A stretch of 64,000 nt of DNA from NCBI GenBank assembly GCA_964505635.1, contig CAZDIP010000002.1, positions 165,843 to 229,842 on the forward strand, written 5' to 3'. The number at the start of each line of letters is the position of its first letter. The stretch's first letter is position 1. The stretch comes from an uncultured Candidatus Saccharibacteria bacterium (GTDB lineage Bacteria; Patescibacteriota; Doudnabacteria; UBA920). Positions 1,251 to 53,882 of the stretch are shown piece after piece. The translations under genes and the position numbers were made by a program. The notes under the pieces are model-generated. The model made no database searches. It had not been told where the DNA came from and saw only the letters and a program-made list of their open reading frames with translations.

Positions 1251-4097
1251 TTATTTAATAGGATCCATCTCTCCCCAATTATCGCCCACTTTAGCTTCAG
1301 CCTTAATAGGAACGGATAAAGAAATTGCTTCTTCCATTAACTTCTTTATTATTTTGGCATAATGTTCTACCTTATCTTCCTTAACCTCAAATACCAATTC
1401 ATCATGCACCTGTAATAAATTTCGGATTTCGGATTTCGGATTTCGGATTTCTTTATGTATGTTTATCATCGCCACCTTTATTACATCTGCCGCCAAACTT
1501 TGTATGGGGAAATTAACCGCTGCCCTTTCCGCAGCCGCCCGAATAAAAAATTGGGAAGATTTAATTTCCGGAAACTTGCGCATTCGGCCTAATTCATTTC
1601 TCACAAAACCTTCCTGGTTAACCTGCAATTTAATTTGTTCAATATATTCTTCCACTTGCGGATAAGCTTTAAAATATTTTTCTATATACTGCTTGGCGTC
1701 CGCCCTGCTCATTTCACCCACGCGGGCAGAAAGCCCAAAACTGGACACGCCGTATAAAATGCCAAAGTTAATAGTTTTGGCATCGCGGCGCATATCTTTA
1801 GTTACTTGGGCGGCCTCAACTCCAAAAATTTCCATGGCGGTTTTTTCGTGAATATCTTCTTCGTCCTTAAACACCTGCATCATTTTTTTGTCTTGGGCCA
1901 AATGCGCGACTATTCGAAGTTCAATTTGCGAATAGTCCAAACTCAAAAGCTTAAAGCCTTTTTCTGCCACAAAAGCCTTGCGCACCTGGCTACCCAAACC
2001 TTCGCCCCTGACCGGGATATTTTGTAAATTGGGGTCAACAGAAGAAAGCCTGCCGGTAGCCGCAATCGTTTGGTTGTAACTGGTATGCAGCCGGCCGGTT
2101 TTTTTATTTACCATTTGGGGCAGCGTTGTTAAATAGGTGCTGTATAATTTCGCTACTTCCCTGTACTCTAAAATTTTTGGGATAATTTCGTGCTGTCCCA
2201 GCATTTTTTCCAAATTATCGGCCGAAGTGGACACTCCGGTTTTAGTACGCTTATTATTTATTGCTTCTAATTTTAGCTCGTCGAACAAAACTTCCTTAAG
2301 CTGCTTGGGGGAGGCGATATTAAATTCCCGGCCGGCTAATTTATAAATTTTGCCTTCCAAATCTTTTATAGAAATTTCCGCTTCCCCGGCCAGCTTGTTT
2401 AAAAGTTTAGTGTCTAATTTTATGCCGTTTAATTCCATGTCCGACAAAACTGCCACTAAAGGCATTTCTATTGTTTCAAAAACTTTAACAAGTCCGTTCT
2501 TTTTTAATTCCGGTTCAAATATTTCTTTAAGCCGCATTGTCATGTCCACATCTTCGCAGCAATACCAAGAAACTTTCTCTGGACTAACTTTGTCCATGGT
2601 AATTTGATCTTTGCCTTTGCCAATCAAATCTGTAATAGGCTGCATTTGGTAGCCCAGCTCGTTAAAAGCCAAGGCATCTAGCCCGTGCTGCCTGGTTCCG
2701 GCATTTAAAAGATATGAGGCTATCATCGTATCGAAGCTGATAACTGATAAATGATAACTGATAACTTTTAACACCTGTGCATCGTACTTTATGTTATGGC
2801 CGATTAGTTTTACTTTTCCAGACGTAAGTAAGGTTTTTAATTCAGGAGATGATAAAAATAGATCCGCGGGTACATAAAAAGCCTGGCCTGGCTTTACGCA
2901 AAAACCCACGCCCACCAATTCCGCGATAATTGGATCAAGCCCCGTGGTTTCCGTGTCAATTGATATTTCTGTAGTTTTCTGTAGTTCGGTAATTAATTTC
3001 TGTAGTTTTTCTTCCGTATCTACAAATATATAATCCTGTTTGCCAATAGCTTTTATTTCTTGATTCTGATCTGTAATGTCACCTCTTGCTACTTGATACT
3101 TGCCTGCCTCGCCGGCAGGCGGGCTTCCTGCTTCATTCTTCGGCAACTTCCCAAGCAAATTTCTAAATTCCAAGCTCTGAAACATCTTCACTGTCTTTTG
3201 CAAATGCTCCTGGTCTAATTCATACGCTTTAATTTCCGGGTCTATGCCCGGCACGTCGCAAATAATTTGCGAAAGTTCATACGACATTTTCGCCTGTTCT
3301 TCCTGTTCTTCTAAAAGCTTTAAAATTCTTTCTTTAATATTTTTTCGTGCTTGTGATTTTGGATTTCGGATTTGCTCATACAACTCTTTTATAGAATGGT
3401 ATTTTGAAATTAACTCGCTGCCTGTTTTTTCGCCAATGCCGCGCACGCCCGGGATGTTATCGCTCGGGTCGCCTCTTAAAGCTTTATAGTCCACCATTTG
3501 GTCGGGATTTAAGCCATAACGTTCCCTAACAGCCTTAGAGTCGTAAATTACAGTGTCGGTTAAGCCTTTTCTTGGCGCGTAAACCCTGACTTTGCCGTTT
3601 ACCAGCTGTAAAGTATCCATATCGCCGGTTAAAATAAATATCTCGGCATTCTCGTGGCTTTTGTCGTGAAAATGTTTGGACAAAGTTCCTAACACGTCGT
3701 CTGCCTCATAACCTTCCTTTTCATAAATTGGCACATTCATAGCCCTAAGCACGTCTTTAATTACCGGGATTTGGTCGTACAAAGCTTGGTCGGCCTTAAC
3801 CCTTGTTGCTTTATATTCTTTGTATTTTTCGTGCCTAAATGTAGGTCCGGCTAAATCAAAAGTCGCGGCTATGTGAGTAGCTTTTATATCCTTCATGGCC
3901 TTTAAAAATATAGTCAGAAAACCAAAAACTGCACCTGTTGGCCGTCCGTCTTTAGTGGTTAAATTAGGCAAAGCGTGATAGGCCCTGTGCACCAAGGCAT
4001 TCCCGTCTATTAAAAGATAGCGTTCACGCACACTTCCCCCTCTCCCTCTGGGAGAGGGTTGGGGTGAGGGTGAATTTTTAGATAGATATTCAGACAT
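1251..4097 (-). CDS. polA: DNA polymerase I
   Basis: 5'-nuclease N-terminus (LLIDGNALVHRAYHAL), 3'-5' exo and polymerase motifs (RRDAKTINFGILYG, LLQVHDELVFEV). Alternative GTG start at 4031 is preceded by a strong SD (AGGGGGAAG). Confidence 0.9.
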   Translation of the reverse strand: MSEYLSKNSPSPQPSPRGRGGSVRERYLLIDGNALVHRAYHALPNLTTKDGRPTGAVFGFLTIFLKAMKDIKATHIAATFDLAGPTFRHEKYKEYKATRVKADQALYDQIPVIKDVLRAMNVPIYEKEGYEADDVLGTLSKHFHDKSHENAEIFILTGDMDTLQLVNGKVRVYAPRKGLTDTVIYDSKAVRERYGLNPDQMVDYKALRGDPSDNIPGVRGIGEKTGSELISKYHSIKELYEQIRNPKSQARKNIKERILKLLEEQEEQAKMSYELSQIICDVPGIDPEIKAYELDQEHLQKTVKMFQSLEFRNLLGKLPKNEAGSPPAGEAGKYQVARGDITDQNQEIKAIGKQDYIFVDTEEKLQKLITELQKTTEISIDTETTGLDPIIAELVGVGFCVKPGQAFYVPADLFLSSPELKTLLTSGKVKLIGHNIKYDAQVLKVISYHLSVISFDTMIASYLLNAGTRQHGLDALAFNELGYQMQPITDLIGKGKDQITMDKVSPEKVSWYCCEDVDMTMRLKEIFEPELKKNGLVKVFETIEMPLVAVLSDMELNGIKLDTKLLNKLAGEAEISIKDLEGKIYKLAGREFNIASPKQLKEVLFDELKLEAINNKRTKTGVSTSADNLEKMLGQHEIIPKILEYREVAKLYSTYLTTLPQMVNKKTGRLHTSYNQTIAATGRLSSVDPNLQNIPVRGEGLGSQVRKAFVAEKGFKLLSLDYSQIELRIVAHLAQDKKMMQVFKDEEDIHEKTAMEIFGVEAAQVTKDMRRDAKTINFGILYGVSSFGLSARVGEMSRADAKQYIEKYFKAYPQVEEYIEQIKLQVNQEGFVRNELGRMRKFPEIKSSQFFIRAAAERAAVNFPIQSLAADVIKVAMINIHKEIRNPKSEIRNLLQVHDELVFEVKEDKVEHYAKIIKKLMEEAISLSVPIKAEAKVGDNWGEMDPIK
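4034..4075. repeat. GC-rich palindromic element (CCCTCTCCC-tct-GGGAGAGGG) at the polA 5' end
   Basis: Perfect 9-bp inverted repeat at 4038-4058 inside a GC-rich ~40-nt stretch that encodes the non-conserved SPSPQPSPRGRGG segment, or lies in the 5'UTR if the GTG start is used. Confidence 0.45.
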
Positions 4098-17603: not shown

Positions 17604-17738
17604 ATGAAAAGAACGTATCAGCCGAAGGTTAAACGCAGAAAGCGCAGGCATGGGTTTTTAAAGCGAATGCAGACAAAAACAGGGCGAAATGTTTTGGCAA
17701 GGCGTCGTGCCAAGGGTAGAAAGAAACTAAGCGTTTAA
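17604..17738 (+). CDS. rpmH: 50S ribosomal protein L34
   Basis: [44 protein letters not shown] (44 aa; below ORF-track cutoff). Confidence 0.88.
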
Positions 17739-17765
17739 TTTTCAGACCAGCCAGTTTAGTGTATT

Positions 17766-18098
17766 ATGTTAGCTAAAAAGCATCGTCTAACCAAAACTAA
17801 GGACGTTTTAGCGGTCTTTGCCAGGGGACGGGCTTTTTTTAACCCATATTTTTCTTTAAAAATCCTCAAGAATAAAACGGGAAAGCCTCGTTTTACGATT
17901 GTGGTTTCTACCAAAGTTTCAAAAAAAGCCGTCGTAAGAAACCGGCTAAAGCGAATAATTAGGGAGCTTATAAAAAAAAATATGGCAAGTTTTTCTGAGG
18001 CAGATTTTGTTTTTACCATCAAACCGGGTTTTCTTCAACTGGAAGAAAGGGAAGGCTTGGCTAAAATAGAAAGTATGATTAAAAACCAAAAAGTCTAA
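17766..18098 (+). CDS. rnpA: ribonuclease P protein component
   Basis: basic 110-aa protein directly after rpmH. Confidence 0.85.
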   Translation: MLAKKHRLTKTKDVLAVFARGRAFFNPYFSLKILKNKTGKPRFTIVVSTKVSKKAVVRNRLKRIIRELIKKNMASFSEADFVFTIKPGFLQLEEREGLAKIESMIKNQKV

Positions 18099-20763: not shown

Positions 20764-23351
20764 TGTTCGCTTGGGGTGTTTAAGCTGGGCAGCGCTTCTT
20801 TGCTAAAAGTTACATTTACGCTCGTATCAGCAGTGTTTCCCAAAATATCAACAACTTTTATGGCAATGGTGTGCGGCCCGTTTGAATATTGGTTGTACAA
20901 AGTAAAAAGGTAAGGCATTGAGGTTTTGCTTGCAACAAAAAACCCGTCTATATAGACATCTACTCTGGATATGGGATTATTGCCAACCGCGGAGACATTA
21001 ACCAAAAAAGGAACTTCCGAAATAATAGCCTCTTCTTGCGGTTGTAGTATGTTGACAACAGGGTTTGTTGTGTTGTTATTGGGCACAGAAGGTATGCCTA
21101 GCCCTTGCGGGTATCTGTAGCCGTTGGCTAAAGCCCAGGCAATAACCGCGTTTTCCCAAGCTGGGATTTCGGGTTTTTCGCTATGAAGTACAACGTAATT
21201 TTCGTAAATAATTTGGCTCGGAGGAGTTTGGCTGGTAGCAGGCAAATGAGTGATTGAGTCAATCGCAACTGTCTGGTGCACATCGTCGGTTTGTACGGGG
21301 ATCGAATAGTCTGCAAATACTTCTTCTTTAGTGCTAGGGGTGTTGTTTGAAGGTAATTTTCCGGATAATTCGTCTACAACTATTTTGGTAATTCCAGGCG
21401 GTTGTTTAAATTCTTCAACTGGATTGTCTTTAAGCGCTGTTTTCATAAATTCATTCCATATTGGAGCCGCAACGAAAACCCCGTCAGCACCTTTTTTTAG
21501 CAAGGTGCCGTCGTTGTTTCCTACCCAAACCCCCGCGGCCAAAGACGGGGTAAATCCTACGGTCCAACCGTCTTGCCATTTTTGGGTGGTGCCGGTTTTG
21601 GCTGCTACAGGCCTGTCAGGTAAAATTAGTGGCGAGTTGGAGCCAAAAACATAAGCTCGAGCCTTATTGTCTGTCATAATACTAGTTAGTAAATATACAG
21701 CTTGCGGGTCAGCAATAATTTGCGGCTCATCTTTATATTCTTCTAAAATTTTTTGGTCTCGGTTGATTATTTTTAAAATCGCTGTTTTTTCATGTTTAAC
21801 CCCCCCGTTGGCTATGACCGAATAAGCGGCCACGTGATCAAGTAGTTTTATTTCACAACCGCCCAATACCAAAGACAGACCGCAGTCAGCCAGAGGGCTG
21901 GTAATGCCAAGGTCTCTTGCTGTTTGCACAGCATTATCGACACCGACTAATGCCAATGTTTTTACAGCTGGAATGTTTAGAGAGCCAGCCAAGGCCTGGC
22001 GCATGGAAATGGGTCCGCGTTCTTTGCCGTCATAGTTTTGAGGTGCATAGTCTTTGTCGCCGTACCTTCCGAAATTTGTGGTCACATCTAAGAGCATAGT
22101 GGCCGGAGCGTACTTGAATTCTTTGGAAAAGGCTGTCAGGTAGACATAGGGCTTAAAACTACTGCCGGGCTGGCGGCTGGAAACGGCAACGTTTACATTA
22201 GGTTCAAATAAGCAATTTTTTCCGGGCTTACAACCTTCCGGCAAAGGGTCAGCAAAATAGTCTTTACTTCCAACCATAGCTAAAATTTGTCCTGTTTTAG
22301 GGTCAATTGCCACTAAAGCCGCATTATTACCGTTATATTTTTTTGAATTTTTTTCTACGCCCTTCAAAACAGCTTCTTCGGCAATTTTTTGTAAAGATGG
22401 ATCTAGAGTGGTATAAACTTTTAACCCCCCTTCCTGCAAAGTTTTTTCTCCGAATTTTTGAGCCAGATAGTCCTGAACCATTAACACAAAATGCGGGGCA
22501 TTTATAGCGGTTTTTGTTTTGGAAAATTCCACTTTTTCGTCTTTGGCTGCTTGTTCCTGTTCTTTGGTTATATAACCTTGCTCGCGCATTTGACTTAATA
22601 TGTAGTCTTTCCTGCCATCCAATATTTGTCTGTTTGGGCCGAATGGGTTGTACCGGCTTGGCGATTGCGGGAGAGCTGCCAGATAAGCGCTTTCAGCCAG
22701 ACTTAAATCTTTGGCGTGTTTGCCAAAATAACTTTGAGCAGCCGCCTCTACCCCGTAGGAATTACGGCCGTAAGGAATTTCATTTAAATATAATTTTAAT
22801 ATGTCATCTTTGGAAAAACGCGCTTCTAAACTTAAAGATAAAATAGCTTCTCGGATTTTACGATCAAAGCTTTTGCTGTTGTTTAAAACCGCATTTTTTA
22901 CAAATTGTTGAGTTAGGGTGCTGCCGCCTCCGCCGCTGGGACCAAGGTTTATCGCATACCTGAAAACTGAACGGAAAATCCCTCTAAAATAAAGGCCGTG
23001 GTGTTGGTAAAAATCTTTATCTTCTATGGCAATGGTAGCATGTTGTAGGTCCGGGGAAATTTGGTCCAAATTTACCAATGTTCTTTTCGCTTCCCCGTGA
23101 ATTTCATAAAGCAGGGTGTTGTCCCGCGCGTAAATTTTAGTGCTTTCGGTAACCTGCCGTTCAAGCAGCTTGTTGGGGTCTGGCAAGTCTTTAGCGTAAT
23201 AAGCAAAAATTAAAGCCCCGGTAATTATGCCTAAAGCAATCAGCCTAAAGCCCCACAGGCCTAATTTTTTAACATCCCAGTGCCATTTTAAAAACCCCTT
23301 TTTCCTGAATTTTGATTTAGGCTCCTTATTTTTATAACTATACACGCGCAT
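20760..23351 (-). CDS. penicillin-binding protein 1A (bifunctional glycosyltransferase/transpeptidase)
   Basis: GT51 motifs (IAIEDKDFYQHHG, RKIRE), SSFKP active-site serine, C-terminal Ig-like extension. Confidence 0.9.
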   Translation of the reverse strand: MRVYSYKNKEPKSKFRKKGFLKWHWDVKKLGLWGFRLIALGIITGALIFAYYAKDLPDPNKLLERQVTESTKIYARDNTLLYEIHGEAKRTLVNLDQISPDLQHATIAIEDKDFYQHHGLYFRGIFRSVFRYAINLGPSGGGGSTLTQQFVKNAVLNNSKSFDRKIREAILSLSLEARFSKDDILKLYLNEIPYGRNSYGVEAAAQSYFGKHAKDLSLAESAYLAALPQSPSRYNPFGPNRQILDGRKDYILSQMREQGYITKEQEQAAKDEKVEFSKTKTAINAPHFVLMVQDYLAQKFGEKTLQEGGLKVYTTLDPSLQKIAEEAVLKGVEKNSKKYNGNNAALVAIDPKTGQILAMVGSKDYFADPLPEGCKPGKNCLFEPNVNVAVSSRQPGSSFKPYVYLTAFSKEFKYAPATMLLDVTTNFGRYGDKDYAPQNYDGKERGPISMRQALAGSLNIPAVKTLALVGVDNAVQTARDLGITSPLADCGLSLVLGGCEIKLLDHVAAYSVIANGGVKHEKTAILKIINRDQKILEEYKDEPQIIADPQAVYLLTSIMTDNKARAYVFGSNSPLILPDRPVAAKTGTTQKWQDGWTVGFTPSLAAGVWVGNNDGTLLKKGADGVFVAAPIWNEFMKTALKDNPVEEFKQPPGITKIVVDELSGKLPSNNTPSTKEEVFADYSIPVQTDDVHQTVAIDSITHLPATSQTPPSQIIYENYVVLHSEKPEIPAWENAVIAWALANGYRYPQGLGIPSVPNNNTTNPVVNILQPQEEAIISEVPFLVNVSAVGNNPISRVDVYIDGFFVASKTSMPYLFTLYNQYSNGPHTIAIKVVDILGNTADTSVNVTFSKEALPSLNTPSEQ

Positions 23352-37340: not shown

Positions 37341-37391
37341 GCGGGCAGAAGGGCGTCCATCCTAGGACGCTTTCACTTCTGCCCGCTTTTC
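37341..37391 (+). terminator. rho-independent terminator
   Basis: gcgggcagaag...cttctgcccgc 11-bp stem with nested ggcgtcc/ggacgc hairpin followed by tttt. Confidence 0.55.
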
Positions 37392-37459
37392 ATTTGCCTT
37401 TATATTTTTACTTTTATAACTTCTGCACTCTATATCTGAAATTTAATGCTATAATACCT

Positions 37460-37493
37460 GTACCCGAAATTAACGGCCGTTAAAAAGAGGTAC
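37460..37493. promoter_or_regulatory. imperfect palindrome GTACCCGAAATTAACGGCCGTTAAAAAGAGGTAC overlapping promoter/RBS of the PaaX-like gene
   Basis: core TAACGGCCGTTA shared with the 34-bp perfect palindrome at 38053-38086; extended -10 (TGcTATAAT) at 37447-37455. Confidence 0.45.
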
Positions 37494-38024
37494 ATGGGAA
37501 AAAGTAAAAAAGAACTGACTTTAACCAGCAAGTTTTTATCGCATTTATATTTAGCGCACGACTTTTTGCTGCCTTTTGTATCCATCCCCGAATTTAAAAA
37601 ACGGGCCCTGTTTGGAAGTTACGGCAGTTACCGTTCGTCTGTTTACAAGCTTTATAAGCGGGGTTGGATAAAGTTTGTAAATAAAGACGCGCAAAGATTT
37701 ATCAAGTTAACCGGCAAAGGACAGTTGCGAGCTTTATTAGCTAAAGCAAAACACCCCCTGCCACAAAAGTGGGACGGCAAATGGCGGATGATTATTTTTG
37801 ACATCCCCGAAGAGGCTAAGGAATTAAGAAACCAGCTCAGGAATTTGTTGAAAGAAAATGATTTTTTCAAACTCCAGGCCAGTGTGTATGTAAATCCATA
37901 TTCCTTAAATCGGGAAGCCATTAAATATTTACAGGAGACAAAGCTTTTGCCGTATATAAGAATTTTAAAAATTGAGGAAGTTGATAATGACTCGGATTTA
38001 AAAAAACATTTTAACCTTGTTTAA
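37494..38024 (+). CDS. PaaX-like transcriptional regulator (short form: wHTH + PaaX_C-like region)
   Basis: KWDGKWRMIIFDIPEEAKELRNQLRNLLKENDFFKLQASVYV matches the W..G.W..V.FDIPE...R..LR..L...GF..L..SV pattern of the PaaX C-terminal region; N-terminal winged-helix-like segment. Confidence 0.5.
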   Translation: MGKSKKELTLTSKFLSHLYLAHDFLLPFVSIPEFKKRALFGSYGSYRSSVYKLYKRGWIKFVNKDAQRFIKLTGKGQLRALLAKAKHPLPQKWDGKWRMIIFDIPEEAKELRNQLRNLLKENDFFKLQASVYVNPYSLNREAIKYLQETKLLPYIRILKIEEVDNDSDLKKHFNLV

Positions 38025-38052
38025 AAAATTGACCAAAGACCAGGCGTAATTT

Positions 38053-38086
38053 GTACCCGTTTCTAACGGCCGTTAGAAACGGGTAC
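38053..38086. promoter_or_regulatory. perfect 34-bp palindrome GTACCCGTTTCTAACGGCCGTTAGAAACGGGTAC
   Basis: 15-bp arms around a GGCC centre; 28 nt downstream of the PaaX-like gene and ~35 nt upstream of the tRNA-Ile promoter. Confidence 0.5.
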
Positions 38087-38120
38087 AAAGGCTTTATATT
38101 TATTGTGATGGATTATGGCC

Positions 38121-38148
38121 TTGAAAATTCGTTTGCGCTGGGTTATAA
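38121..38148 (+). promoter_or_regulatory. sigma70-type promoter for tRNA-Ile
   Basis: TTGAAA - 17 nt - TATAAT ending 10 nt before the tRNA. Confidence 0.45.
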
Positions 38149-38158
38149 TATTTTTCAC

Positions 38159-38235
38159 GGGCGTGTAGCTCAGCTGGTTAGAGCACGAAGCTTATACCTT
38201 CGGGGTCCTAGGTTCAAATCCTAGCACGCCCACCA
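38159..38235 (+). tRNA. tRNA-Ile (anticodon UAU)
   Basis: cloverleaf: acceptor gggcgtg/cacgccc, anticodon loop cuUAUac, T-loop ttcaaat, encoded CCA. Confidence 0.8.
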
Positions 38236-38263: not shown

Positions 38264-38647
38264 TTGAATTATAAAATTATGCACGAACATTGCTATCAGG
38301 TTGCTCCTTGCAAATGGTGCATGTTAGGTTCAAAAATTTTTGGACACGGCCTAACCAAGCTTTTGGGAAAAAAATGGCCCAGGCTTACACTTCCGCAAGT
38401 GACTCCAAATTTATCGGGCTTGGATTTGCAAATAGTCGGAGGTTTGGTTAACCGGGGTTTTACCGAGCATGACATAGACGTTATTGGCCAGGAAAGTGAT
38501 GTAAAGGTCTTGGCTAAAAGACTGTCTGAGGCGGGAATTTCTAATTTATTGCACTACTGCGGCCCAAAAGCCAGCAGCCATTCCCATTGGCGGGCTTTGA
38601 AAAACGGATTTTTGGTAACTTTTTTGGGGAATAAAATGTATTTATAA
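38264..38647 (+). CDS. hypothetical protein (Cys-cluster, possible minimal nucleotidyltransferase fold)
   Basis: CYQVAPCKWC and GGLVNRGFTEHDIDVIG. Confidence 0.3.
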   Translation: MNYKIMHEHCYQVAPCKWCMLGSKIFGHGLTKLLGKKWPRLTLPQVTPNLSGLDLQIVGGLVNRGFTEHDIDVIGQESDVKVLAKRLSEAGISNLLHYCGPKASSHSHWRALKNGFLVTFLGNKMYL

Positions 38648-38648
38648 T

Positions 38649-38677
38649 AAAACTCCTCCGCAAGAGCGGAGGAGTTT
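38649..38677. terminator. rho-independent terminator (shared by convergent genes)
   Basis: aaactcctccgc-aaga-gcggaggagtttt. Confidence 0.55.
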
Positions 38678-38704
38678 TGCGTAATACGTTATACCTAATA
38701 CTTT

Positions 38705-49488: not shown

Positions 49489-49715
49489 TTTGTGGAGCGC
49501 CTAACCCCGCATAACTAGAAAACTCGTATGCGGGGCGTGGCGGGAAGTTTCCAATTCCCTTTGACAAATGAAAAAACTTTCACAAAATTGTGAAAGTTTT
49601 TTCATTGGAGCGGGTAATCCACCTACGCTAAAGCTTCGGCGGACAGGCGGGAAAAGTTCTCATTCCCACTGACAAAAAGAAAATGCCCGACCGTTGAGGT
49701 CAGGCATATTCTTTT
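49489..49715. repeat. two ~110-bp tandem repeat units, each beginning with a copy of the tRNA-Gly 3' end (TGGAGCG[GG/CC]TAA) and ending in a terminator-like hairpin
   Basis: unit1 49492-49600, unit2 49606-49715; shared GGCGGGAA(A)AGTT.C.ATTCCC..TGACAAA core; unit3 is the intact tRNA-Gly. Confidence 0.5.
49679..49715 (-). terminator. terminator hairpin downstream of tRNA-Gly
   Basis: atgcctgacc-tcaac-ggtcgggcat stem (with a G-U) followed by uuuuc on the minus strand. Confidence 0.45.
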
Positions 49716-49789: not shown

Positions 49790-50080
49790 TGGTGCCTCGG
49801 GTCAGAATCGAACTGACTACGCCAGCCTCTTCCAAGGCTTTTTTGGACTATATCATCATCCCGAAATTTTCGGGAGCTGGGCGCTTAGTACGGGATTATT
49901 GTTGGGACTCACCCGTTAGTCTCTACGCCTTTTCCGGCACCTTTGCCCGCCGGAACTTGGTTCGGGATTGTTATCTTTTAAGATAGTTTTTCCCGAGTTC
50001 ACCCAGTTTTTCTCAATCCACCTTGCGGCGGATGGCCCCAAAGATTTTAGGGCTGCGCTCTACCAATGAGCTACCGAGGC
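49790..50080 (-). tRNA. tRNA-Phe (anticodon GAA) interrupted by a group I intron in the anticodon loop
   Basis: 5' exon GCCTCGGTAGCTCATTGGTAGAGCGCAGCCCT (ends at U33); 3' exon GAAGAGGCTGGCGTAGTCAGTTCGATTCTGACCCGAGGCACCA; the spliced product closely matches canonical tRNA-Phe. Confidence 0.65.
49833..50048 (-). ncRNA. group I self-splicing intron (~216 nt)
   Basis: P1 between exon GCCCU and internal guide GGGGC (U.G at the splice site); P-like GCGGGCAAAGG, R-like GUAGAGACUAAC and S-like AUGAUAUAGUCC elements (P7 GACUA/UAGUC); terminal G before the 3' exon. Confidence 0.55.
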
Positions 50081-53846: not shown

Positions 53847-53882
53847 ATCAACTTTTTTACGCAATTGCGTAAAAAAGTTGAT
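53847..53882. promoter_or_regulatory. perfect 36-bp palindrome ATCAACTTTTTTACGCAATTGCGTAAAAAAGTTGAT between convergent genes
   Basis: 16-bp arms around an AATT centre; T/A runs lie inside the arms rather than trailing them. Confidence 0.4.

What the first reader, a model, noticed from the sequence alone, without database searches (positions are those of the whole stretch)
37447..38086. PaaX-like regulator bracketed by two palindromes sharing a TAACGGCCGTTA core
Seen: a 176-aa ORF whose C-terminal half (KWDGKWRMIIFDIPEEAKELRNQLRNLLKENDFFKLQASVYV) matches the characteristic pattern of the PaaX C-terminal region. Its promoter/RBS is overlapped by GTACCCGAAATTAACGGCCGTTAAAAAGAGGTAC (37460-37493, ATG at 37494; extended -10 TGcTATAAT just upstream). 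A perfect 34-bp palindrome GTACCCGTTTCTAACGGCCGTTAGAAACGGGTAC lies 28 nt after its stop (38053-38086) and ~35 nt upstream of the tRNA-Ile(UAU) promoter. Inference: an autoregulated repressor whose second operator may also terminate transcription or control the downstream tRNA-Ile(UAU). The DIPE...SVYV beta-alpha-beta pattern is also reminiscent of Cas2/VapD-like folds, which makes the family worth a structural look.
Basis: partly seen in the sequence, partly recalled or inferred. Interest (0 to 1): 0.6.

Follow-up and report, generated by a model that had tools for sequence, protein, structure and literature searches.

The report
Small regulator gene bracketed by matching palindromes
A small DNA-binding protein gene of an uncultured (Patescibacteria/CPR-type) bacterium sits between two copies of its own probable 34-bp palindromic binding site, and this gene-plus-two-sites unit is conserved in dozens of distant relatives, which points to a large, unstudied family of self-controlling regulators whose second site has no settled role.

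Summary
The ORF at 37494-38024 encodes 176 aa. Site A (37460-37493) follows an extended -10, contains the RBS and ends at the ATG. Site B (38053-38086) is a perfect 34-bp palindrome.

The protein is a winged helix plus a Cas2-like domain, the N-terminal two thirds of PaaX.

In 67 of 78 homologous loci, down to 33% identity, the gene is bracketed by two related 34-bp palindromes. The centre CGnnCG and a W-rich spacer are conserved everywhere. The outer arms differ between genomes but match within a genome. Site A always overlaps the gene's own promoter.

In a syntenic rml operon the whole unit (A, gene, B) is present in two genomes and cleanly absent in two. The sites therefore belong to the gene, not to its neighbours. 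Coupling of site B to tRNA-Ile(UAU) is not conserved.

Best reading: an effector-less mini-PaaX autorepressor with a promoter operator and a 3' auxiliary operator, plus a few orphan sites. The role of B and the unusually perfect palindromy remain unexplained.

Novelty: new variant of a known kind. Interest is moderate.

The parts
37341..37395 (+). Terminator-like hairpin (GCGGGCAGAAG...CTTCTGCCCGC followed by TTTTCATTT) that ends the upstream gene and insulates the cassette promoter. This is context, not a core part.
   Evidence: Read from the sequence. The stem and T-run are conserved in the 70%-identity relative L001.
37447..37455 (+). Extended -10 promoter element TGcTATAAT of the regulator gene. 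The predicted transcription start falls in the left arm of site A.
   Evidence: Read from the sequence. The same TGnTAtAAT sits a few nt before site A in L001 and L006. The -35 is weak, so the consensus scan did not call it.
37460..37493 (.). Site A: an imperfect 34-bp palindrome (12/17 pairs), the probable autoregulatory operator. It covers roughly +1 to +32 of the transcript, contains the RBS AAGAGG (37485-37490) and ends at the ATG.
   Evidence: A homologous site overlaps the promoter in 63 non-redundant loci.
37494..37763 (+). [quoted passage not shown]
   Evidence: AlphaFold model with pLDDT 83.6. Foldseek hits cover the full length of PaaX 8a39, Rv0674 3kfw and Jannaschia 3l09, and also MarR/PadR/F-93-type winged helices. 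The Pfam PaaX N-terminal model gave no hit.
37764..38024 (+). Cas2-like ferredoxin domain (residues 91-176; the range includes the stop codon), the probable dimerisation module. It carries WDGKW, FDIPE (D103 invariant) and QxSVY motifs. No PaaX_C domain follows it.
   Evidence: PF20803 PaaX_M at E 4e-21. PF09827 Cas2 at 25.4 bits against a cutoff of 23.8. TIGR01573 at 29.2 bits against 24.5. Invariant columns are listed, and the alignment to type II Cas2 FDMP...QFSVY is.
38053..38086 (.). Site B: a perfect 34-bp palindrome (40 bp with its TTT/AAA flanks, 38050-38089), 28 nt after the stop codon. It is the probable second (auxiliary) operator. As RNA it would form a hairpin of -28.7 kcal/mol, but with no U-tract.
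   Evidence: A B-type site lies a median of 15 nt after the stop codon in 63 loci and is perfect in 25 of 63.
38121..38235 (+). Promoter (TTGAAA-17-TATAAT) and gene of tRNA-Ile(UAU). This is a neighbour and is judged not to be part of the unit.
   Evidence: The distance from the tRNA to site B is not conserved.

Best explanation
The ORF encodes an effector-less 'mini-PaaX': a winged-helix DNA-binding domain fused to a Cas2-like domain that most likely mediates dimerisation.

Inferred mechanism: the dimer (or a dimer of dimers) binds 34-bp two-fold symmetric sites. Each half-site is a species-specific outer arm (positions 1-7), an A/T-rich spacer (8-12) and a family-wide conserved centre (CG at positions 15-16, giving CGnnCG).

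Site A lies on the gene's own promoter and 5' UTR, so binding there would shut off the gene's own transcription, as PaaX does at its Px promoter. In the RNA, the weak A hairpin could also mask the RBS.

Site B, just after the stop codon, is a second and usually better operator that belongs to the same inherited unit. I think it most likely acts as an auxiliary operator. It would raise occupancy at the promoter-compromised site A by cooperative binding or looping across about 590 bp. It could also hinder polymerases that enter or leave the gene.

A few identical or similar 'orphan' palindromes elsewhere in related genomes would be further targets.

Shown: the fold and domains, the sites, their conservation, their co-inheritance with the gene and the promoter overlap. 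Inferred: that this protein binds the sites, the autorepression, and the role of site B.
For: Protein:
- PaaX_M at E 4e-21 and Cas2 just above its cutoff.
- The AF2 model shows a winged helix plus a beta-alpha-beta-beta-alpha-beta domain.
- The best PDB match is E. coli PaaX 8a39 over 172 columns, then Rv0674, 3l09 and Cas2 proteins.
- PaaX is a winged-helix repressor with a dimerisation motif. It binds TGATTC-N27-GAATCA and represses its own promoter by steric hindrance (PMC9493321).

Sites:
- 67 of 78 loci with both flanks have a related A/B pair (identity at least 22/34; the null mean is 14.7).
- C15 and G16 are nearly invariant, and positions 8-10 are W only.
- The arms are variable between loci but 83-89% identical between A and B within a locus.
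- The centre type follows the protein subfamily: CGGCCG against CGATCG/CTATAG.

Promoter overlap takes three forms:
- the -10 lies just upstream of the site (window, L001, L006);
- the site spans TTGACA...TATACT (L008, L011, L012, L027, L030);
- an extended -10 lies at the right edge of the site (L023, L028, L031, L061, L086).
In the last two forms A is largely untranscribed, which places its function on DNA.

Other points:
- There is no G.T over A.C bias among mismatches (68 against 54, p=0.24).
- B is perfect more often than A (25 against 10 of 63, p=0.005), as expected for an anchor operator free of promoter constraints.
- Unit character: the whole A-gene-B block is present in L112 and L118 and absent in L116 and L117 within an otherwise syntenic rmlB-rmlD-rmlA operon.
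- Orphan sites with matching arms occur in L003, L114 and Moranbacteria-type MAGs.
Against: - No binding experiment exists. Correlation between site type and protein subfamily would also arise from simple linkage.
- The protein has no sensor domain. A regulator that mainly controls itself needs further targets, and the orphan sites show no functional theme: their neighbours are CutA1, NUDIX, MacB/FtsX, MiaA, DivIC, LepA and a flippase. Several lie between convergent genes where there is no promoter.
- Looping does not explain why B is fixed within about 30 nt of the stop codon in 49 of 63 loci.
- Simple dimer recognition does not explain why non-conserved spacer positions stay perfectly self-complementary. 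There are 50 compensated A-versus-B differences against about 14 expected.
- It also does not explain why a 36-bp palindrome is identical at five loci in three species-level MAGs.
- The Cas2-type Asp (D103, FDIPE) is invariant here but lost in the PaaX-family relative Rv0674. This hints at more than a scaffold role.
Confidence: 0.6

Rival explanations
1. Roadblock or insulator reading. The protein bound at B and at orphan sites, possibly together with the strong hairpin, stops or attenuates transcription at gene ends. It would act as a sequence-specific termination or insulation factor. Site A would block read-in from upstream genes. This partly overlaps the best explanation and concerns mainly what B does.
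For: - B is tightly tied to the 3' end of the gene (median 15 nt after the stop codon).
- B sites and orphans often sit between convergent genes or right after stop codons (L003 and L006; L096, L100, L104, L108 and L114).
- Perfect Watson-Crick palindromy with no G.T bias is what a hairpin needed on both strands would show.
- Hairpin energy is -28.7 and -27.7 kcal/mol on the two strands, z about -7.8.
- 11 of 37 co-directional upstream genes end within 26 nt of A.
Against: - There is no T-run after B (T fraction 0.37 on both sides). The window's own flanks are TTT before and AAA after.
- The genome also has canonical terminators, A-tract-hairpin-T-tract, for example at 38647-38680.
- In L112 and L118, B lies 11 and 8 nt before the ATG of rmlD inside an operon, so rmlD must be transcribed through or from B.
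- 11 of 30 co-directional downstream genes start less than 60 nt after B.
Confidence: 0.22
2. Selfish or mobile cassette, analogous to a REP element with its RAYT gene. The palindromes would be a low-copy dispersed repeat family. The winged-helix-Cas2-like protein would be their cognate binding and processing protein, with the Cas2-type acidic site possibly acting as a nuclease. The A-gene-B unit would be gained, lost and homogenised as a block.
For: - The unit is present or absent as a block at the same spot of a syntenic operon, with no remnant in the empty sites.
- A related genome carries a 52%-identical cassette elsewhere, next to TrbL/PrgI/TraC-like genes and with three palindrome copies.
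- In several loci A and B are identical imperfect palindromes in direct orientation (L033, L034, L035, L044, L052, L072, L112). Asymmetric positions agree in direct over inverted orientation 82:28, p=2.5e-7.
- Identical 36-bp orphan copies occur in three MAGs.
- D103 is invariant.
Against: - There is no recombinase, transposase or HUH domain.
- Copy number is low: 2 sites in 64 kb and about 2 distal orphans in roughly 410 kb of loci.
- The cassette proteins in L112 and L118 are 71% identical, like the flanking genes at 68-73%. This fits vertical inheritance plus one clean loss.
- The gene stays near gyrA and tRNA-Ile in the four closest relatives.
- There is no target-site duplication apart from the sites themselves.
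- PHROGs gave no hit.
Confidence: 0.1
3. RNA-level control. The palindromes would act as 5' and 3' mRNA hairpins, and the Cas2-like (RRM-like) domain would bind or cleave them, giving translational autoregulation or control of mRNA stability.
For: - In the window and in L001, site A is inside the 5' UTR and includes the RBS.
- The A hairpin folds at -12.6 kcal/mol, z -2.1.
- B forms a very stable 3' hairpin.
- Cas2 and VapD relatives include RNases (established knowledge of those families).
Against: - In many loci the -35/-10 lie inside or at the right edge of A, so A is not transcribed.
- There is no excess of G.U-compatible mismatches on the coding strand (p=0.24).
- Orphan sites lie between convergent genes in either orientation.
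- The N-terminal domain is a classic DNA-binding winged helix.
Confidence: 0.05
4. The palindromes are unrelated to this protein. They would be generic terminators, or operators of another regulator, that merely sit next to the gene.
For: - Another perfect 34-bp palindrome with a different centre lies between convergent genes at 53848-53881, with no paralogue nearby.
- Linkage alone can produce the correlation between site and protein.
Against: - The only constant partner of the site pair across 63 non-redundant loci with diverse neighbours is this gene.
- The sites vanish together with the gene in empty loci.
- The centre of these non-coding sites is conserved down to 33% protein identity.
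Confidence: 0.03

Closest known systems
PaaX, the phenylacetyl-CoA-responsive repressor of E. coli and Pseudomonas (PDB 8a39; relatives 3l09, Rv0674 3kfw)
   Same: - An N-terminal winged helix followed by a Cas2-like central domain (PF20803).
- The best structural match over the full length.
- PaaX binds a long palindrome with widely spaced half-sites (TGATTC-N27-GAATCA) and represses its own promoter (PMC9493321).
   Different: - No PaaX_C effector domain: 176 aa against 316 aa for the 8a39 chain.
- Far below the equivalog cutoff (43 bits against 264.55).
- No paa genes nearby.
- The operator has an additional conserved CGnnCG centre.
- A second operator is fixed at the 3' end of the gene.
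- It keeps the Cas2-type FDIPE Asp, which Rv0674 has lost.
Cas2 (CRISPR adaptation protein) and VapD toxins
   Same: - The ferredoxin-like fold.
- The FD[IM]P...Q.SV[YF] signature, including the metal-binding Asp position.
- Several databases name homologues 'Cas2'.
   Different: - Fused to a winged helix.
- No CRISPR array in the window.
- No cas genes among the neighbours in any annotated locus.
- The VapD score is 15.6 against a cutoff of 100.
- The 'Cas2' names are very likely mis-annotations.
Auxiliary-operator and DNA-looping repressors (lac O1/O2/O3, gal OE/OI, deo). This comparison rests on established knowledge.
   Same: A weaker operator that overlaps the promoter is paired with a stronger distal operator a few hundred bp away, and both are bound by one oligomeric repressor.
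   Different: Here the second operator is always just past the stop codon of the repressor's own gene, so the pair brackets the whole gene. Oligomeric state and looping are untested.
REP elements with their RAYT genes (REPtrons). This comparison rests on established knowledge.
   Same: A gene flanked on both sides by copies of a species-specific palindromic repeat of about 35 bp that also occurs elsewhere in the genome.
   Different: There is no HUH/Y1 transposase fold. Copy number is very low. Site A is integrated into the gene's promoter.

Membership tests
PaaX (TIGR02277 / three-domain PaaX repressor) | Central Cas2-like domain PaaX_M (PF20803) | tested here: met
   E 4.4e-21, 75.2 bits against a cutoff of 24, residues 91-166.
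PaaX (TIGR02277 / three-domain PaaX repressor) | N-terminal PaaX-type winged-helix DNA-binding domain | tested here: inconclusive
   No Pfam hit to the PaaX N-terminal model at E<=1. However, the AF2 model shows a winged helix. Foldseek aligns 172 columns to PaaX 8a39. TIGR02277 aligns residues 45-166.
PaaX (TIGR02277 / three-domain PaaX repressor) | C-terminal effector (phenylacetyl-CoA) binding domain PaaX_C | tested here: not met
   The protein ends at residue 176, right after the Cas2-like domain, and there is no PaaX_C hit. The 150 best family representatives are also short, 81-282 aa.
PaaX (TIGR02277 / three-domain PaaX repressor) | Score above the NCBIfam equivalog cutoff | tested here: not met
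   43.2 bits against a cutoff of 264.55.
PaaX (TIGR02277 / three-domain PaaX repressor) | Genomic association with paa catabolic genes | tested here: not met
   Neighbours include a PEP-utilising enzyme, a His phosphatase, tRNA-Ile, gyrA, rml genes and Mur ligase. No paa genes appear in any annotated locus.
PaaX (TIGR02277 / three-domain PaaX repressor) | Binds a long palindromic operator at its own promoter (autorepression) | not testable with these tools
   The sequence layout is compatible, but binding has not been measured.
Cas2 (CRISPR-Cas adaptation module) | Cas2 sequence profile and fold | tested here: met
   PF09827 at 25.4 bits against 23.8. TIGR01573 at 29.2 bits against 24.5. PADLOC Cas2 at E 2e-7. 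Foldseek hits to type II Cas2.
Cas2 (CRISPR-Cas adaptation module) | Encoded next to cas1 and a CRISPR array | tested here: not met
   No CRISPR-like array in the 64-kb window. No Cas families among the neighbours in the annotated loci.
Cas2 (CRISPR-Cas adaptation module) | Stand-alone protein of about 90-110 aa | tested here: not met
   The Cas2-like part is residues 91-176 of a 176-aa protein that has an N-terminal winged helix.
REP/RAYT (REPtron) | Gene flanked by copies of a genome-specific palindromic repeat | tested here: met
   67 of 78 loci.
REP/RAYT (REPtron) | HUH/Y1 (IS200/IS605 TnpA-like) transposase | tested here: not met
   Only PaaX_M and Cas2 hits were found, and the fold is a winged helix plus a ferredoxin-like domain.
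REP/RAYT (REPtron) | Many dispersed repeat copies per genome | tested here: not met
   Two sites in the 64-kb window. About two distal orphans in roughly 410 kb of related loci. Whole genomes could not be scanned.
Intrinsic (Rho-independent) terminator, for site B | GC-rich hairpin followed by a U-tract | tested here: not met
   The hairpin is present (-28.7 kcal/mol). It is followed by AAAGGCTTTATAT in the window, and there is no T enrichment after B across 63 loci. The consensus scan flagged it only through a loose 5-of-8 T window.

The most novel reading that the evidence does not exclude
The A-gene-B unit and its orphan copies could form a previously undescribed palindrome-and-protein system of CPR bacteria. 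A Cas2-derived domain that retains its acidic site would be targeted by a winged helix to hairpin- or cruciform-forming 34-bp palindromes. There it would process them, or act as a sequence-specific transcription or chromosome-organisation factor. This would explain several observations: perfect self-complementarity is maintained at positions that are not conserved in sequence, A and B are homogenised as direct repeats, identical copies occur at unlinked loci, and the unit is gained or lost as a block. It would be an evolutionary bridge between Cas2/VapD nucleases and PaaX-type repressors.
Probability: 0.12. Interest if true: 0.85.

Novelty: new variant of a known kind. Interest (0 to 1): 0.55.

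Why it matters
Gene regulation in CPR/Patescibacteria is almost uncharted. This family is large: at least 3,344 clusters at 50% identity reach E<=1e-10. It is routinely mis-annotated as 'Cas2' or 'PaaX'.

The sequence alone gives a ready-made protein-operator pair with natural specificity variants. The arms differ from genome to genome, so the pairs could serve as orthogonal repressor-operator parts and as a model for protein-DNA co-evolution.

The family also documents a form intermediate between Cas2 and PaaX, a winged helix joined to a Cas2 domain that keeps the Cas2 signature. The fixed 3' operator and the strict palindromy raise a concrete, testable question about how small-genome bacteria insulate or terminate transcription.

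Tried and rejected
- **Regulon search in this genome.** The pattern GTACC-N8-ACGGCCGT-N8-GGTAC was scanned in genome contigs. The window's genome is not in that collection, so its genome-wide site count is unknown. The scan did reveal orphan copies in other CPR MAGs. High-GC hits (Streptomyces and others) were treated as chance.
- **Looser searches in the window.** These found no third site. ACGGCCGT at 22764 lies inside an ORF and has no arms.
- **Coupling to tRNA-Ile(UAU).** Rejected.
- **Origin-proximal or centromere (parS-like) idea**, prompted by gyrA. There is no DnaA-box cluster, and GC skew shows no clear origin signal in the window, only a weak cumulative-skew minimum near 34-38 kb. 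Dropped.
- **Mutual information between protein columns and DNA positions**, to find specificity residues. The result was dominated by phylogeny and high-entropy columns and was uninformative.
- **Remnant of a solo site in the empty rmlB-rmlD spacer of L116.** No similarity above shuffled controls.
- **Hybrid-site test for site-specific integration** (A left arm complementary to B right arm). The window sites do not fit: B is self-complementary and A is not cross-complementary to it. This was read directly.
- **Rfam.** No family matches either palindrome.
- **Phage libraries.** PHROGs gave no hit.
- **Literature searches** for PaaX with Cas2, Cas2-like or Patescibacteria, and for CPR palindromic autoregulators. 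No description of this family was found. The library lacks most subscription papers.
- **The afdb50 fold library** was unavailable.
Full report
**1. The observation**

- An extended -10, TGCTATAAT, lies at 37447-37455.
- Site A, GTACCCGAAATTAACGGCCGTTAAAAAGAGGTAC, lies at 37460-37493. It contains the RBS AAGAGG and ends at the ATG (37494).
- The 176-aa ORF runs to 38024.
- Site B, GTACCCGTTTCTAACGGCCGTTAGAAACGGGTAC, lies at 38053-38086, 28 nt after the stop codon. It extends to a 40-bp palindrome.
- tRNA-Ile(TAT) is at 38159-38235 and has its own near-consensus promoter at 38121-38149.

The 12-nt core occurs only twice in 64 kb, and the full pattern never appeared in shuffles. Looser searches found no third site in the window. 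Site A is only 12/17 self-complementary: the outer five and inner seven positions of each half pair, and the middle five do not.

**2. The protein**

Pfam gives PaaX_M, 'PaaX protein central Cas2-like domain' (E 4e-21, residues 91-166), and Cas2 just above its cutoff. Neither the PaaX N-terminal model nor PaaX_C is hit. NCBIfam gives PaaX at 43 bits against a cutoff of 264.55 and Cas2 at 29 bits against 24.5.

An AlphaFold model built on 52 homologues (pLDDT 83.6) shows two domains:
- a winged helix: three helices, a beta-hairpin wing and a linker helix, residues about 10-85;
- a beta-alpha-beta-beta-alpha-beta ferredoxin-like domain, residues 97-172.

Foldseek against the PDB puts E. coli PaaX (8a39) first over 172 columns. 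Next come Rv0674 and the Jannaschia PaaX-like protein, then Cas2 proteins and MarR/PadR/F-93-type winged helices.

The effector-binding C-terminal domain is absent.

The family keeps the Cas2 signature FD[IM]P...Q.SV[YF], with D103 invariant. The PaaX-family protein Rv0674 has lost that Asp.

The window has no CRISPR array, and no cas or paa genes appear in any annotated locus. The 'Cas2' and 'PaaX' names that databases give to homologues are therefore best read as mis-annotations.

The family is large: 3,344 clusters at 50% identity reach E<=1e-10, and the best 150 are all short-form proteins. Named relatives are Patescibacteria, often Ca. Doudnabacteria.

**3. Comparative anatomy of the sites**

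The three closest loci that I read by eye all have the same layout, with the centre ACGGCCGT kept and different, still palindromic, arms.

I then took 80 metagenomic loci and scored them with scripts.
- 67 of 78 loci with both flanks available carry a related pair of 34-bp palindromic sites, one before and one after the gene. Identity is at least 22/34, against a mean of 14.7 when flanks of different loci are paired.
- Across 63 non-redundant pairs, C15 and G16 (centre CGnnCG) are almost invariant, positions 8-10 are A/T only, and the arms (positions 1-7) carry almost no family-wide information.
- Yet the arms are 83-89% identical between A and B of the same locus.
- The centre type follows the protein subfamily. 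Proteins at least 42% identical to the query mostly have (A/G/T)CGGCCG(T/C/A). Proteins at 33-41% identity mostly have CGATCG or CTATAG centres.
- B lies a median of 15 nt after the stop codon, and sometimes overlaps the last codons. A lies 0-112 nt before the start codon. The centre-to-centre spacing is 549-771 bp.

**4. DNA or RNA?**

Site A overlaps the core promoter in three different ways.
- The -10 lies just upstream, so that A is +1 to about +32. This is the case in the window, L001 and L006.
- The site spans a TTGACA...TATACT promoter (L008, L011, L012, L027, L030).
- An extended -10 lies on the right edge of the site (L023, L028, L031, L061, L086).

In the last two classes A is mostly not transcribed, so a purely RNA-level role is excluded for the family. 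Mismatches show no excess of G.T over A.C (68 against 54, p=0.24). No T-run follows B. These points favour recognition of double-stranded DNA by a symmetric oligomer. PaaX is the precedent: it binds TGATTC-N27-GAATCA and represses its own promoter by steric hindrance (PMC9493321).

**5. What B is not, and what it may be**

The tRNA-Ile(UAU) link is synteny only. In the four closest genomes the tRNA sits beside gyrA, at 73 nt, 0.26 kb, 1.8 kb and 2.8 kb from B. Most loci have no tRNA there.

B is not a canonical terminator. It has no U-tract, and the genome uses ordinary A-tract-hairpin-T-tract terminators elsewhere.

In L112 and L118, B lies 11 and 8 nt before the ATG of rmlD inside an operon. 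In addition, 11 of 30 co-directional downstream genes start less than 60 nt after B. B therefore cannot be a strong constitutive stop.

B is a perfect palindrome more often than A (25 against 10 of 63, p=0.005). That fits a high-affinity auxiliary operator helping a promoter-compromised A. However, looping alone does not explain why B is fixed at the 3' end of the gene. A roadblock or attenuator role remains a serious partial rival.

**6. The unit is inherited as a block**

Four related genomes share the gene order LGT-DUF5656-PDZ protease-...-rmlB-rmlD-rmlA-...-CAP-sortase.
- In L112 and L118 the block A-gene-B sits exactly between the rmlB stop codon and the rmlD start codon.
- In L116 and L117 it is absent, leaving a 63-nt and a 1-nt spacer with no remnant of a site.
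- The two cassette proteins are 71% identical, like the flanking genes at 68-73%.
- L116 is the sister of L118 (rmlD 83% identical). The simplest history is therefore vertical descent with at least one clean loss.
- The genome of L117 carries a 52%-identical cassette about 40 kb away, next to TrbL/PrgI/TraC-like genes, with three palindrome copies.

So A and B belong to the gene, not to its neighbours.

**7. Orphan sites**

- A third, perfect copy with the local arms lies 2.8 kb upstream in L003, between a TrmB-like gene and an HATPase gene.
- L114 has one between convergent FemAB and Clp_N genes.
- The scan of species-representative genomes found the identical 36-bp palindrome TGTACCATAATTCCACGGCCGTGGAATTATGGTACA at five loci in three Moranbacteria-type MAGs. 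Only one of these is next to a homologue. One further copy may be the B site across an assembly break.
- The neighbours of the orphans are CutA1, NUDIX, MacB/FtsX, MiaA, DivIC, LepA and a flippase, which show no common theme.
- Density is low: about two distal orphans in roughly 410 kb.

**8. Unexplained features**

- Where A and B of one genome differ, the change is compensated on the other arm far more often than independence predicts: 50 against about 14, mostly in the spacer. Examples are L016, L025 and L038. Nearly all orphans are perfect palindromes. Base-specific reading by a dimer does not require this. It suggests either selection for hairpin or cruciform formation on both strands, or the known mutational bias that corrects quasi-palindromes. 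The second explanation rests on established knowledge and was not tested here.
- In L033, L034, L035, L044, L052, L072 and L112, A and B are identical even at asymmetric positions, always in direct orientation (82:28, p=2.5e-7). This indicates gene conversion or recent duplication between the two sites.
- The protein has no sensor domain.
- The Cas2-type Asp is invariant.

These points keep a more exotic reading alive at low probability: a palindrome-processing or selfish, REP/RAYT-like system.

**9. Verdict**

The gene encodes an effector-less mini-PaaX, a winged helix plus a Cas2-like domain, that most probably represses itself through site A. It carries a second, cassette-owned operator B. 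This architecture is conserved across a large CPR family that I could not find described in the literature available to me.

The PaaX C-terminal label and the tRNA-control idea are not supported. I rate the finding a new variant of a known kind, with moderate interest (0.55). The main open questions are what B and the orphan sites do, and why palindromy is so strict.

Noticed in passing
window 49823-50058 (- strand): A group I intron (Rfam RF00028, 61.3 bits against a gathering score of 50) lies between tRNA-Val and tRNA-Gly. The flanking 5' and 3' pieces (GTGCCTCGGTAGCTCATTGGTAGAGCGCAGCCCT ... GAAGAGGCTGGCGTAGTCAGTTCGATTCTGACCCGAGGCACCA) look like a split tRNA gene, possibly tRNA-Phe(GAA), that ARAGORN did not call. 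After manual splicing ARAGORN does call a third tRNA there, though with an uncertain anticodon.
   Followed up: partly
window 53848-53881: A second perfect 34-bp palindrome, TCAACTTTTTTACGCAATTGCGTAAAAAAGTTGA, extends to about 40 bp. Its layout is similar to sites A and B (short arm, W-rich spacer, CG-containing centre), but the centre is different. It lies between convergent genes. No paralogue of the regulator is present in the window. It could be a terminator or a site for a paralogue encoded elsewhere.
   Followed up: partly
window 49570-49603: A near-perfect (16/17) 34-bp palindrome, GAAAAAACTTTCACAAAATTGTGAAAGTTTTTTC, lies in the tRNA cluster region. Only sub-threshold Rfam matches were found.
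   Followed up: no
window 37341-37395 and L001 about 3849-3925: A terminator-like hairpin, GCGGGCAGAAG...CTTCTGCC(C/T)GC plus a T-run, lies just upstream of the cassette promoter. It is conserved between the window and the 70%-identity relative, although the gene upstream differs in identity and strand in L001.
   Followed up: partly
L003 5118-5151 and 8106-8139; L112 11454-11487; L115 about 17730-17770: Another conserved palindromic repeat, TTTCCGCC(N2-3)GGCGGATCCGCC(N3)GGCGGAAA, recurs in several related CPR genomes. Some copies apparently lie inside called genes, including gyrA in L003. It is absent from the window.
   Followed up: no
L110, L111 (Logan contigs carrying the window's gene); L092/L095: Short-read assemblies break inside or at the perfect palindrome. 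Both Logan contigs end 55 nt after the stop codon, which is inside site B. One MAG contig ends where B is expected, and another starts 18 nt before a copy of the site. Such palindromes will be under-represented at contig ends in metagenome surveys.
   Followed up: partly
L003, L113, L114: TrmB-family regulator genes (PF01978) recur within 2-3 kb of the cassette, and L114 has four in 20 kb. The L003 orphan palindrome lies just downstream of one. This could be coincidence, because TrmB paralogues are abundant in these loci.
   Followed up: no
window 38264-38647: A 127-aa ORF between tRNA-Ile and gyrA has no Pfam family. It is followed by a canonical bidirectional terminator hairpin at 38647-38680.
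   Followed up: no
L115 9800-10000 and 10650-11020: GC-rich palindromic segments, for example CCCCGGCTTGACCGGGGATCC and CCTCCGTCCGCCTTAGGCGGGAGGACGG, lie between the palindrome copies and the cassette gene. They look like small inserted repeat elements and may explain why A is 200 nt from the ATG and why a third copy exists there.
   Followed up: no
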